Positions 7,082 to 9,441 of a stretch of 60,181 nucleotides of DNA are shown here, one piece after another (position 1 is the stretch's first letter; every line of letters starts with the position of its first letter). Both the position numbers and the translations under genes were made by a program. Location of the stretch: positions 1 to 60,181 of IMG/VR virus record IMGVR_UViG_3300025889_000126; one strand, 5' to 3'. A model generated the notes under the pieces. The model worked only from the letters and a program-made list of their open reading frames with translations. It searched no databases and had not been told where the DNA came from. This stretch comes from a virus. Its lineage: Duplodnaviria > Caudoviricetes.

Positions 7082-7326
7082 AACTTAATTTTATACGATG
7101 ACATAATCATTTCCTTAGCCTCACTCATCATCTCTCCCCTCGAATATCCCTCCGCTATCATACTCACCTTCTCCTCACGCTTCGCCATCTTCCTAGCCCT
7201 TGCCATCTCAGCAATGCCAGTCTCCCCACATGGCCTATTGTTAATCAACCTGCCATTCTTCATGGTCAAGCCATCTCCTCCAGCATAATTGCCGTAAATA
7301 CTGTTCGAAATTCCTTTTACTCTCAT
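7078..7326 (-). CDS. hypothetical protein
   Basis: 82-aa ORF after a promoter; ATGA overlap with the next gene. Confidence 0.7.
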   Translation of the reverse strand: MRVKGISNSIYGNYAGGDGLTMKNGRLINNRPCGETGIAEMARARKMAKREEKVSMIAEGYSRGEMMSEAKEMIMSSYKIKL

Positions 7327-7366: not shown

Positions 7367-7669
7367 ATGAAAATTTTTGAATAAACAAATAGAGGTTTTG
7401 GGTACTATAGCGGTTTGGCGCAGCCGGCCGCTATCGGAAAGTGGGATTTTTTTCGATGGGGGGGGGTGCTGTTTTGCCTTGGCTTGTCGGATTTTTTGGC
7501 ATTTTTGTAGACGTCGGTTACGTCGTTGCTGTCGTATATCTATGTGCTACTGCTGTGCTGCTGTCTGTCTATCGTTTGCCGTATACGTCGCACACTTCGT
7601 ATGTCTCTCGCTGCTGCTGTCGCTTTGCTTACAATCTAAACAAACCTTAGTGTTAAACTTACACTAACC

Positions 7670-7722
7670 TTATTGTACTTTTTACAATAACTGATCTTAT
7701 GTTATTGTACTTTTTACAATAA
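7670..7722. repeat. tandem identical palindromic operator-like sites
   Basis: TTATTGTA-CTTTT-TACAATAA at 7670-7690 and 7702-7722. Confidence 0.8.
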
Positions 7723-8084
7723 GTAACTATTTGCACAAACATAGTTTATAAGCCAATGATTTTTTGTAAACTATTTTGTTATTTATAGTTTACTTTTTAC
7801 TTTCAGACATCGCCCAGGGAACACATAAAAACGTCGTATATATATCTCTTTTCTGCGAGATCCTTTGTCGTATATTGCTATTTATTTCTGCAACGTTGTT
7901 GCATTTAGGTACTTTGCTTACAATCTAAACTAAGGTATAACCCCCCTCTTTTTTTCCTCAATCCTAAATTTTTTTTTGCTATCCTCAAAAACTAAGAATG
8001 TAGGTTTTATCGGGCTTTCAGCGTTTTGCTAGTTTTTCGAGTCAAGAAATTTTTAAAAAAAATGAAAATATTTTTCAAAAAAGT

Positions 8085-8114
8085 TTTGAAATAACAAAAC
8101 TAGTCTTAACTTTG
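8085..8114 (+). promoter_or_regulatory. consensus Bacteroidota promoter (-33 TTTG / -7 TAACTTTG), probable major early promoter
   Basis: TTTG at 8085-8088, 18-nt spacer, TAACTTTG at 8107-8114. Confidence 0.75.
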
Positions 8115-8119
8115 TGACA

Positions 8120-8577
8120 TCCTTAATACATCGGTGACACATTAAGCGGTAGTGTTAAGATACAAAAAAGTGAAGTATTGAAACGGTGTACTATATGTTA
8201 AGTTCATGTCTAACGACAGCGGTTAAAATTCTTAATATATACTAGTGTAACAGTTCTTTTATTTTGTGGGAAATTGGGATGCGCGGCGTAGTCAACTAAA
8301 ATGAGAAAAACGAGCGCGATATATGTACCCGTGTGCATATTATTGGATAAATCGAATGAACAGCGAATTATCGTATCTGTGGGGAACGAGGAGAAACAGA
8401 TATAGAAAACCCAATTTAAAATTTTTTGAGTCTTAATTGGCTTTAGGTTATTGCAATGGATTGCAATGTAAAAAATGATAATCAGCATTTTTTGTCCTAT
8501 ACATTTTGTTTTGGCGAATTGCCTATATAGGTTTTAAGATATATATCTTATTTGGTTTCGATATCAAAATAGGCACA
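8120..8577 (+). ncRNA. candidate large structured non-coding RNA / structured leader
   Basis: No plus-strand ORF in the track; more than 12 nested helices forming multiway junctions (see findings); starts right after a consensus promoter. Confidence 0.6.
8520..8577 (+). ncRNA. tRNA-like (D-armless) element
   Basis: 7-bp TGCCTAT/ATAGGCA stem, TAAGAT-ATAT-ATCTTA arm, TTTGGT-TTCGAT-ATCAAA T-arm-like hairpin. Confidence 0.45.
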
Positions 8578-8608
8578 AATTTTTTAACACTATTAAAACT
8601 TTACTAAA

Positions 8609-8707
8609 ATGGAATTCTTACTTTTTATTTGTGCTGTTACATTATTATTTTTAATGTCGGCAAATGGTATTATAAGCGAATATAATAACCAAAAAGATAA
8701 ATTTTAA
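8609..8707 (+). CDS. small hydrophobic peptide (32 aa)
   Basis: MEFLLFICAVTLLFLMSANGIISEYNNQKDKF with an AT-rich leader like other early genes. Confidence 0.5.
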   Translation: MEFLLFICAVTLLFLMSANGIISEYNNQKDKF

Positions 8708-8733
8708 TTAACTAACTTTTAAACAATACTAAA

Positions 8734-9441
8734 ATGAGAGCTATTTTTAGAACTGAAAACACTATTCAAATTTTCAGATTTGGTACAACGTCAAATGATA
8801 AAATTGAGGCAAACAAAAAACGCAAAATTGTGCAAAGTTACACATTTAGTCGGTCACAATTTGAGTTAATATTGCAAGGCTTAAACGATGGCATGAAAAC
8901 ATTTTTTAACAGTGCCGACAGTAACTGTCTAGACTGTCCTTTTAACTCATTTGGGTTATGTTATACACACAAATTCAATCAATACGTCGGATTTATTTCA
9001 ATGCTTAAATCTGTAATTAAAGACTACAAAGATTTTTATGACATACCAACGTATAACAGCGACATAAGGGAACAAATATTAAATATGTCTAAAAATACAT
9101 ATGTTAGATTTGGTACATATGGTGAACCGTCCTTACATCCTACTGACTTAATAAGCGACATTGTGAACGTTTGCGATAATTGGACGGGTTACACACACCA
9201 ATGGCAAAAAAGAGACGATTTGAGCGGTTACTTTATGGCGTCGACTCACACAATTTTTGAAGAATTAATAGCTAGAAACGAGGGCTACCGATCATTCATA
9301 GCGACTGATGAAAAAATTGACGGCATTGTTAACTGTCCCGCATCAAAAGAAGCGGGTTATAAGTCAACTTGCAGTAAGTGTGGACTATGTTCGGGTACAT
9401 TTGGAAAAGGCAAAAAATCGGTATACATTCTAGTACACTAA
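8734..9441 (+). CDS. Cys-rich Fe-S / radical-SAM-like phage protein (Gp88-like family)
   Basis: CLDC...LCY, RFGTYGEP, WTGYTHQW, C-terminal CPA...CSKCGLC. Confidence 0.6.
   Translation: MRAIFRTENTIQIFRFGTTSNDKIEANKKRKIVQSYTFSRSQFELILQGLNDGMKTFFNSADSNCLDCPFNSFGLCYTHKFNQYVGFISMLKSVIKDYKDFYDIPTYNSDIREQILNMSKNTYVRFGTYGEPSLHPTDLISDIVNVCDNWTGYTHQWQKRDDLSGYFMASTHTIFEELIARNEGYRSFIATDEKIDGIVNCPASKEAGYKSTCSKCGLCSGTFGKGKKSVYILVH

What the first reader, a model, noticed from the sequence alone, without database searches (positions are those of the whole stretch)
8120..8577. Candidate ~460-nt multi-junction structured ncRNA as the first early transcript
Seen: directly after a consensus promoter (8085-8114), about 460 nt with no credible plus-strand ORF are almost fully tiled by nested helices. 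Junction 1 (3-way): TACATCG 8127-33/CGGTGTA 8184-90 encloses TGACAC/GTGTTA and GATAC/GTATT. An 11-bp stem follows (8192-8202/8231-8241). Junction 2 (5-way): AAATTGGG 8271-78/CCCAATTT 8410-17 encloses four hairpins, GCGC..GCGC, ATATGTAC/GTGCATAT, GATAAATCG/CGAATTATC and GTATCTGT/ACAGATAT. Junction 3 (3-way): TAGG 8444-47/CCTA 8496-99 encloses ATTGCAA/TTGCAAT and AAAAAATG/CATTTTTT. A tRNA-like domain ends the region. G-U pairs that work on the plus strand argue for RNA rather than DNA structure. Known: phages carry large ornate ncRNAs (e.g. GOLLD, ROOL), often next to tRNAs. Inference: this is a possibly undescribed phage ncRNA or regulatory leader expressed at the very start of infection.
Basis: partly seen in the sequence, partly recalled or inferred. 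Interest (0 to 1): 0.85.

Follow-up and report, generated by a model that had tools for sequence, protein, structure and literature searches.

The report
Modular structured early leader RNA, phage
A freshwater phage begins its first early transcript with about 490 untranslated bases that fold into several RNA modules, one a new five-helix junction kept by compensating mutations in relatives; its function is still unknown.

Summary
A Bacteroidota-type promoter (TTTG..TAnnTTTG, 8085-8114) is present, and its -7 box is aligned in 5 of 5 relatives.

The 458 nt taken as one unit are not unusually stable: z = -1.16 on the + strand and -1.78 on the - strand. The evidence lies in individual modules.

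- **Five-helix junction, 8271-8417.** It folds the same way on its own in 4 of 4 homologues, with z from -2.3 to -3.1. 95% of cells pair, and 18 of 45 pairs change on both sides (0 of 500 shuffles reach this).
- **Two-hairpin module of junction 3, 8444-8499.** It occurs in 7 copies across 5 relatives and also covaries.
- **Strand.** G.U pairs outnumber A.C pairs 17 to 2, which favours + strand RNA.
- **Not conserved.** ARAGORN calls no tRNA. Rfam has no family for the region.

Modules are gained, lost or duplicated among close relatives, and 5 complete, more distant relatives lack the junction.

Best reading: a modular untranslated early leader RNA. The closest analogue is the abundant Pleft non-coding RNA of L5-type mycobacteriophages. 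Expression was not tested because no RNA run was listed. The scan's earlier notes hold no look-alike sequence on other DNA.

The parts
8085..8114 (+). Host-type (Bacteroidota) promoter: -33 TTTG at 8085-8088, -7 box TAACTTTG at 8107-8114
   Evidence: Regex match. The -7 box is aligned in 5 of 5 relatives. The -7 consensus TAnnTTTG is described for Flavobacterium and Bacteroides in PMC7641319 (passages read).
8122..8159 (+). 5' hairpin A1: stem CTTAAnAC / GTGTTAAG with a large loop carrying CAC-rich motifs, near the predicted transcript start
Evidence: Single-sequence MFE folds place a 5' hairpin here in 5 of 5 homologues, with different stem letters in each.
8192..8241 (+).
   Evidence: A 10-13-bp A/U stem is present in 5 of 5 MFE folds. 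It changes G.U to A-U and U-A to U.G between window, L051 and L002. The sequence is low-complexity, so this is weak evidence.
8271..8417 (+). Five-helix junction (5WJ). Closing helix 8271-78 / 8410-17; hairpin 1 8281-8317, whose loop holds an AUG at 8301; hairpin 2 8318-8344; hairpin 3 8346-8372; hairpin 4 8373-8403, with a purine-rich 15-nt loop
   Evidence: MFE z = -3.13. The same fold appears in 4 of 4 homologues. RNAalifold result. 95% of cells paired; 18 of 45 pairs changed on both sides, 0 of 500 shuffles reach this, slid controls give at most 4. The model found L051, which was not used to build it, at 174.9 bits.
8444..8499 (+). Junction 3: closing TAGG / CCTA around a two-hairpin module (hpA 8449-8468, hpB 8469-8494)
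   Evidence: MFE fold. Six copies of the module were aligned: 96.7% of cells paired, 8 of 15 pairs changed on both sides. A seventh copy was found in L002 at 44.6 bits.
8520..8576 (+). Terminal domain: a 7-bp closing stem (TGCCTAT / ATAGGCA) with a hairpin of loop UUCGAU stacked on its 3' strand. Relatives carry the two-hairpin module inside it, giving a four-way cloverleaf shape
   Evidence: z = -2.66. Folds of 4 homologues. The closing pair changes U-A to U.G, and one hairpin pair is G.U, G-C or A-U in different sequences. No tRNA call.
8577..8608 (+). A/U-rich unstructured tail with a T6 run and the TTAAAAC start-site motif of the first ORF
   Evidence: Conserved in 4 of 4. A TAAA(A/C) motif near -15 recurs at most gene starts of the phage.
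8609..8707 (+). First ORF of the operon: a 32-aa hydrophobic peptide
   Evidence: ORF list. A near-identical peptide follows the L051 leader; the translation is my own reading. An ATGGAA start is aligned in L001 and L002. A similar 30-aa ORF sits at L033 888-980.

Best explanation
Window 8115-8608 is the roughly 490-nt untranslated 5' leader of the phage's first rightward (early) operon, made by the host RNA polymerase from the Bacteroidota-type promoter at 8085-8114.

It acts as RNA on the + strand and is a chain of independently folding modules:
- a 5'-terminal hairpin;
- a long A/U stem;
- a 147-nt five-helix junction;
- a two-hairpin module;
- a terminal domain in which a 7-bp stem is stacked on a T-arm-like hairpin.

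Close relatives gain, lose or duplicate these modules, probably by recombination between the repeated two-hairpin units.

Inferred mechanism, not shown: the stacked modules make the start of the early transcript long-lived. They are cut out, possibly at the acceptor/T-arm-like terminal domain, into stable small RNAs, as seen for the ~500-nt Pleft RNA of L5-type mycobacteriophages. The five-helix junction, with its two long conserved loops, would be an accessory platform that binds a host or phage factor early in infection.
For: Shown:
- Promoter conserved in position in 5 of 5 relatives.
- No conserved ORF on either strand.
- No terminator-like site on the + strand between 8115 and 8734.
- Five-helix junction: the same MFE fold in 4 of 4 homologues, z from -2.26 to -3.13. 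171 of 180 cells paired; 18 of 45 pairs changed on both sides against 7.8 +/- 1.9 in shuffles (0 of 500); slid controls give at most 4.
- Two-hairpin module: 87 of 90 cells paired and 8 of 15 pairs changed on both sides. Copies found: 1 in the window, 2 in L051, 2 in L001, 1 in L033, 1 in L002.
- Strand: 17 G.U cells against 2 A.C cells. Pairing drops from 95.0% to 89.4% and from 96.7% to 91.1% if read on the - strand.
- Modularity: L002 lacks the junction and junction 3, L033 lacks junction 3, and the window lacks 37 nt of the terminal domain.
- More distant relatives also place an ORF-free, structured leader of about 450 nt behind their early promoter.

Analogy:
- In L5, D29 and StarStuff, about 500 nt of non-coding DNA between the early promoter Pleft and gene 89 give the most abundant, stable RNA. 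It appears as four species of about 100-500 nt and is toxic to the host (PMC5712189, passages read).
- The window's 235-aa gene has a 31%-identical homologue in the cluster A phage Pukovnik (E 6e-22). That homologue is the third gene after a 1,058-nt unannotated right end.
Against: - No transcript data exist: no RNA run was listed. The start site, the 3' end, stability and processing are all inferred.
- The leader as a whole has no energy excess: z = -1.16.
- The family is tiny, with 4 carriers of the junction. All counts therefore rest on few, related sequences.
- The junction is dispensable in L002 and absent from 5 of 5 complete, more distant relatives. It cannot be essential to early expression.
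- The terminal domain is not recognised as tRNA-like by ARAGORN or Rfam. Its T-arm-like hairpin has a 6-bp stem and a 6-nt loop rather than 5 bp and 7 nt.
- There is no sequence or model similarity to the mycobacteriophage right end: best E 1.7 and 1.3. That comparison is analogy only.
Confidence: 0.5

Rival explanations
1. The junction is a cis-regulatory sensor. It would be a riboswitch-like aptamer or an operator for a phage or host protein, setting how much of the early operon is transcribed or translated.
For: - It lies in a 5' leader with covarying stems around strongly conserved unpaired stretches: an 18-nt loop in hairpin 1 and a 15-nt loop in hairpin 4.
- A T-run follows the closing helix in 3 of 4 carriers.
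- The hairpin 1 loop repeats 12 nt of the start region of the 235-aa gene (family D10). An operator that mimics a start site would look like this.
Against: - No terminator-like hairpin or alternative pairing was found between 8115 and 8734.
- The junction ends 190 nt before the first start codon, and the start region itself is unstructured.
- L002 runs the same promoter and operon without it, as do 5 of 5 more distant relatives.
Confidence: 0.2
2. It is a processive antitermination RNA of the put type: a folded RNA just behind the early promoter that binds the transcribing polymerase and lets it read through terminators.
For: The position, directly downstream of the early promoter, is the same as for putL and putR of HK022. 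That knowledge is recalled and was also named in scan note e1-521953; no paper was read here. A/U hairpins followed by T-runs lie downstream in the leader.
Against: - put RNAs are about 70 nt with two stems (recalled). The shape here is different.
- No canonical terminators are seen downstream.
- The junction is dispensable in L002.
Confidence: 0.08
3. The conserved AUG at 8301 starts a translated upstream ORF (leader peptide), and the folds only modulate its translation.
For: An ATG stands at the same loop position in 4 of 4 carriers and opens ORFs of 34, 30, 19 and 26 aa, all beginning MRK.
Against: - The peptides share only about the first 6 residues across all four (about 14 in three of them). 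They then diverge in sequence, frame and length exactly where the stems covary.
- The start context scores 2.8, against a median of 12.6 for 61 gene starts. 25.5% of all 2,402 ATGs score as high.
Confidence: 0.05
4. The pairing acts in single-stranded DNA, for example at a replication origin or priming site next to the repeat array at 7620-7930, and not in RNA.
For: The region lies at the switch between leftward and rightward genes, beside direct and palindromic repeats and near the cumulative GC-skew minimum.
Against: 17 G.U cells against 2 A.C cells, including a G.U pair invariant in 4 of 4 sequences, fit RNA of the + strand. A conserved promoter points into it. The GC-skew switch is confounded by the change of coding strand.
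Confidence: 0.05

Closest known systems
[quoted passage not shown]
   Same: - About 500 nt without a conserved ORF between the early promoter and the first gene.
- No evident canonical terminator.
- Thought to be processed into several smaller RNAs.
- Part of it is dispensable for lytic growth.
- A homologue of the window's 235-aa early gene lies just downstream in the cluster A phage Pukovnik (gp87).
   Different: - No sequence or covariance-model similarity.
- Host phylum and base composition differ.
- Abundance, stability and toxicity are measured there and unknown here.
- No secondary structure is described in the passages I read.
put RNAs of phage HK022 (processive antitermination); recalled, and named in scan note e1-521953
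   Same: A folded RNA encoded directly behind an early promoter and acting in cis.
   Different: put is about 70 nt with two stem-loops. Here there are five modules over about 460 nt, and the largest is optional among relatives. No function was tested.
Large ornate RNAs GOLLD and ROOL (Rfam families; abstract of bioRxiv 10.1101/2024.12.08.627333 seen in the listing)
   Same: Phage-associated non-coding RNAs with many helices.
   Different: No Rfam match at gathering scores or at E <= 10. This is not one large conserved unit but separable modules of 147, 56 and 57-93 nt.
tRNA and tRNA-like structures
   Same: A 7-bp stem continuous with a hairpin whose loop reads UUCGAU. The relatives' version is a four-way cloverleaf of about 92 nt.
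   Different: ARAGORN gives no call in the window or in 7 loci. No Rfam tRNA match. The hairpin has a 6-bp stem and 6-nt loop. There is a 12-13-nt linker after the 5' strand and no encoded CCA.
Candidate structured RNAs predicted in IMG/VR viruses (Fremin, Bhatt and Kyrpides 2023, PMC10690425; abstract and outline read)
   Same: The same data source (IMG/VR) and the same kind of evidence (covariation; cis-regulatory motifs upstream of genes).

Membership tests
tRNA / tRNA-like element | Recognised as a cloverleaf by a tRNA finder or by the tRNA covariance model | tested here: not met
   ARAGORN finds 0 genes in the window and in L051, L001, L033, L002, L003, L005 and L022. No Rfam tRNA hit at E <= 10 in window 7600-8800 or L051 4200-4800.
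tRNA / tRNA-like element | A 7-bp acceptor stem continuous with a T arm of 5 bp and a 7-nt T-loop | tested here: inconclusive
   The 7-bp stem TGCCTAT / ATAGGCA abuts a hairpin with loop UUCGAU, but that hairpin folds as 6 bp with a 6-nt loop.
tRNA / tRNA-like element | A 3' CCA end, or a discriminator base followed by CCA | tested here: not met
   The stem is followed by CAAAT or CTAA(T/C) in 4 of 4 sequences.
GOLLD, ROOL and other Rfam families | Match to the family covariance model at its gathering score | tested here: not met
   0 matches in the whole window. Only two hits, near E = 9-10 and far below their gathering scores, in 7600-8800.
Riboswitch | Aptamer with covarying stems and a conserved unpaired core | tested here: inconclusive
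   Stems covary and two loops are nearly invariant. With only 4 sequences, conservation of the junction strands cannot be judged.
Riboswitch | Expression platform: a terminator/antiterminator pair or occlusion of the start site | tested here: not met
   No terminator-like site on the + strand between 8115 and 8734. The start region of the first ORF is unpaired in the MFE fold.
Early-promoter leader ncRNA of the L5 Pleft type (a functional kind, not a sequence family) | About 500 nt without a conserved ORF between the early promoter and the first gene | tested here: met
   Promoter at 8085-8114, first ORF at 8609, and no conserved ORF between them.
Early-promoter leader ncRNA of the L5 Pleft type (a functional kind, not a sequence family) | Highly abundant, stable RNA processed into smaller species | not testable with these tools
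   No RNA run holds the sequence.
put-type antitermination RNA | Makes RNA polymerase terminator-resistant in cis | not testable with these tools
   Needs transcription assays. Only the position behind the promoter is shared.

The most novel reading that the evidence does not exclude
The leader is a cassette rack for trans-acting early RNAs. Host tRNA-processing enzymes would cut at the acceptor/T-arm-like domain and release the five-helix junction and the cloverleaf-like modules as stable decoys. These would tie up or misdirect a host factor, such as a defence sensor, a nuclease or a tRNA-handling enzyme, in the first minutes of infection. The swapping of modules between near-identical phages would then be the trace of an arms race fought with RNA rather than with protein anti-defence genes.
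Probability: 0.2. Interest if true: 0.8.

Novelty: new variant of a known kind. Interest (0 to 1): 0.5.

Why it matters
Long untranslated RNAs made first in infection are known from a few phages, for example the L5 Pleft RNA, but their structures and targets are unknown. This case offers a leader whose folds are defined base pair by base pair through natural compensating mutations. Natural variants lacking single modules are also at hand (L002, L033, the window itself). That gives a ready-made deletion series for asking what such early RNAs do in Bacteroidota phages, a group with almost no studied RNA biology. The five-helix junction is also a new, well-supported RNA motif absent from Rfam.

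Tried and rejected
**Known families**
- Rfam gave nothing on the whole window at gathering scores. Searches by E-value on window 7600-8800, five related loci, L051 4200-4800 and L005 1680-2150 gave only noise.
- ARAGORN found no tRNA or tmRNA.

**Searches for relatives**
- blastn of 7700-8750 against the phage collection: no match.
- tblastn of the 235-aa protein there: only matches below 60% identity, mostly actinophages.
The contigs of the closer protein relatives P0003, P0004, P0006, P0007 and P0010 (75-85% identity) could therefore not be fetched. They probably hold further leaders.
- Pattern scan for the hairpin 1 loop: 21 stretches. Only 2 were real (the contig of L001, and L051); the other 19 matched the motif alone.
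- Two stricter junction patterns found only the contig of L001. A looser hairpin 4 pattern found that contig and L051.
- Pattern scan for the terminal domain: 4 stretches, of which L054 and L055 were chance hits in G+C-rich coding DNA.
- Both scans of genome contigs found 0.
- Model R1 found nothing in 5 complete, more distant relatives. R1 and R2 found nothing in the Pukovnik right end.

**Expression**
- No RNA holder was listed.
- Laying contigs of 3 DNA runs added nothing on the leader. The one exception was a 151-nt contig in the probable source sample, in which 8115-8184 is replaced by 67 other letters.

**Ideas dropped**
- The minus-strand 92-aa ORF is not conserved and has no Pfam hit.
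- The upstream ORF as a gene.
- A pseudoknot between GUUCUUU (8253-8259) and the hairpin 4 loop. It is compatible in 4 of 4 sequences, but the only changes are purine transitions opposite U, which cannot test pairing. This is my own reading.
- Covariation in the A/U stem A2: the (TA)n sequence is self-complementary, so it is uninformative.

Full report
**Setting.** The window is a complete (99%) IMG/VR virus record of 60,181 bases. Leftward genes end at 7326; they include a GroEL-type chaperonin and a holin. Rightward genes begin at 8609. The finding lies in the 1.3-kb ORF-poor stretch between them. There is no cultured close relative. blastn of 7700-8750 finds nothing in 50,697 phage records. 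The neighbouring 235-aa protein matches that collection only below 60% identity, mostly in actinophages. In metagenomes the protein is common: 1,534 proteins at E <= 0.001.

**The observation.** The promoter is TTTG-N18-TAACTTTG at 8085-8114. TAnnTTTG is the -7 box described as conserved in Flavobacterium and Bacteroides (PMC7641319, passages read). The same box is aligned in all 5 relatives that share this region.

No + strand ORF exceeds 37 aa. The 92-aa minus-strand ORF has no Pfam hit and is broken in L001 and L033. The claim that the 460 nt are more structured than chance fails for the whole region: z = -1.16 on the + strand and -1.78 on the - strand. By segment:

| Segment | z-score |
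|---|---|
| 8115-8245 | -0.61 |
| 8271-8417 | -3.13 |
| 8442-8502 | -1.50 |
| 8518-8578 | -2.66 |

**Relatives.** The adjacent 235-aa gene served as anchor. It gave 9 loci in IMG/VR and 22 in JGI metagenomes. Only four distinct contigs share nucleotide similarity with the leader:
- L001 (the same contig as L010 and L012);
- L002;
- L033;
- L051, which was found by a loop pattern.

**The five-helix junction (8271-8417).** The MAFFT alignment of window, L051, L001 and L033 was made without reference to structure. On it, 171 of 180 cells form standard pairs and 18 of 45 pairs carry changes on both sides. Shuffles give 7.8 +/- 1.9, and 0 of 500 reach 18. Sliding the partners by 1-3 columns gives at most 4. 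Each of the five helices has at least two such pairs.

Each homologue folded alone gives the same architecture, with z = -3.13, -2.54, -2.92 and -2.26. A covariance model built from three sequences found the fourth (L051) at 174.9 bits, and found nothing else in 347,539 bases.

Two loops are almost invariant: 18 nt in hairpin 1 and 15 purine-rich nt in hairpin 4.

The junction is missing in L002, which has a clean deletion together with junction 3. It is also absent from 5 of 5 complete relatives whose 235-aa protein is 67-69% identical, and two pattern scans of 185,579 prokaryote genomes found nothing.

**The upstream ORF.** The hairpin 1 loop holds an ATG (8301) in 4 of 4 carriers. It opens ORFs of 34, 30, 19 and 26 aa. 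The peptides agree only at the start, where hairpins 1 and 2 fix the RNA. After that they differ in sequence, frame and length. The start context scores 2.8, against a median of 12.6 for 61 gene starts of this phage, and a quarter of all ATGs score as well. I read the ATG as part of a conserved RNA loop, not as a gene start. Translation is not excluded.

**Junction 3 and the terminal domain.** Junction 3 is TAGG / CCTA around two hairpins. The same two-hairpin unit recurs inside the terminal domain of L051, L001 and L033. There it joins a 6-7-bp closing stem and a hairpin with loop UUCGAU to give a four-way cloverleaf shape of about 92 nt. The window has lost 37 nt there and keeps a single hairpin in their place.

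Across six copies of the unit, 87 of 90 cells pair and 8 of 15 pairs change on both sides; slid controls give at most 1. A model of the unit found a seventh copy, in L002, at 44.6 bits. Every one of the 5 relatives therefore has at least one copy. This unit, not the large junction, is the constant core.

The cloverleaf shape and the stem/T-arm-like stack recall tRNA, but ARAGORN and Rfam do not agree. The arm geometry is off and no CCA is encoded.

**The 5' segment.** In L051 and L002 only 4 of its 7 closing pairs remain contiguous. The latter is low-complexity, so I give it little weight.

**Strand and molecule.** In the two tested structures there are 17 G.U cells and 2 A.C cells. Read on the minus strand, pairing falls from 95.0% to 89.4% and from 96.7% to 91.1%. 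One G.U pair is invariant in 4 of 4 sequences. Together with the promoter direction, this favours + strand RNA over minus-strand RNA or single-stranded DNA.

**Wider pattern.** The more distant relatives (L003, L004, L005, L007, L016, L022, L023) have their own early promoter, TTGACA..TAnCTTTG. An unrelated ORF-free leader of about 445-450 nt follows it. RNAalifold on five of these leaders (L003, L005, L007, L022, L023) gives 79 pairs, 20 with changes on both sides. They include a canonical-looking T-arm hairpin (5 bp, loop TTCGATT) and a final 7-bp stem that covaries. A long structured early leader is thus a trait of the whole phage group, while its modules are replaceable.

**What it resembles.** A scan note (e1-5765528) pointed me to PMC5712189, of which I read passages. 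In L5, D29 and StarStuff, about 500 nt of non-coding DNA between the early promoter Pleft and gene 89 yield the most abundant RNA of the infection. That RNA is stable, appears as four species of about 100-500 nt, has no evident terminator, is toxic to the host and is partly dispensable.

The window's 235-aa protein has a homologue in the cluster A phage Pukovnik (gp87, 31% identity, E 6e-22). It is the third gene after 1,058 unannotated bases at the right end. The layout matches: early promoter, long non-coding RNA, one or two small genes, then the homologous gene. The RNAs themselves are unrelated.

**Mechanism.** Shown: promoter, folds, strand, modularity and the absence of a conserved ORF. 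Inferred: that the leader is a long-lived early RNA, that it is processed (perhaps at the stem/T-arm-like domain), and that the junction binds a factor.

Against a riboswitch or attenuator: no terminator-like element or start-site occlusion was found, and the junction is optional. Against put-type antitermination: the shape differs and the junction is optional. None of these rivals is excluded without experiments.

**Novelty and score.** The junction and the two-hairpin unit match no Rfam family. The scan's notes hold no look-alike outside this window. They do list other structured leaders behind phage early promoters, and a survey predicted 10,006 candidate structured RNAs in IMG/VR (PMC10690425; abstract and outline read). 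Its supplements are closed, so I cannot say whether this locus is listed there.

I class it as a new variant of a known kind. The structural support is solid for so few sequences, the distribution is narrow, and the function is unknown.

Noticed in passing
window 8609-8707: A 32-aa hydrophobic ORF directly follows the leader. A near-identical peptide follows the L051 leader, an ATGGAA start is aligned in L001 and L002, and a similar 30-aa ORF sits at L033 888-980. It is probably a real small membrane-protein gene.
   Followed up: partly
window 7380-7640; L051 5220-5300 (minus strand): An ORF-poor stretch of odd composition (G/T-rich, about 50% G+C in a roughly 30% G+C neighbourhood) lies just after the last leftward gene. 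L051 has a CACGCG-rich low-complexity stretch at the same place. Unexplained.
   Followed up: no
window 7623-7933: Two identical 21-bp palindromic units lie 32 bp apart (7670-7690, 7702-7722). A 22-nt direct repeat brackets the region (7623-7644, 7912-7933). All sit upstream of the early promoter and may be operator or origin sites (also scan note e1-6275922).
   Followed up: partly
window, gene starts genome-wide: Most gene starts carry a TAAA(A/C) motif about 12-16 nt upstream of the ATG and no Shine-Dalgarno-like sequence. This fits a Bacteroidota host.
   Followed up: partly
L003 1556-2016, L005 1681-2137, L007 1957-2412, L022 449-935, L023 657-1140: More distant relatives have an unrelated structured leader of about 450 nt behind their early promoter. 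It contains a canonical-looking T-arm hairpin (5 bp, loop TTCGATT, with a compensating change in L003) and a covarying terminal 7-bp stem. ARAGORN and Rfam give no tRNA call.
   Followed up: partly
L056 (Mycobacterium phage Pukovnik, right end): The homologue of the window's 235-aa early gene (gp87) is the third gene after 1,058 unannotated bases at the genome end. This is the region where L5-type phages make their abundant Pleft non-coding RNA. The same layout is shared across very distant phages.
   Followed up: partly
window 8114-8185 (run X1, a 151-nt contig): The probable source sample holds a contig in which the promoter and the A/U stem are joined by 67 other letters in place of 8115-8184. 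This looks like a co-occurring variant with a replaced 5' hairpin segment.
   Followed up: no
L051 3406-4110 (minus strand): In L051 the leader and small ORF are followed by a 234-aa protein whose printed sequence looks different from the window's 235-aa protein (no alignment was run). The promoter-leader-small ORF unit therefore seems to be kept while the next gene is exchanged.
   Followed up: no
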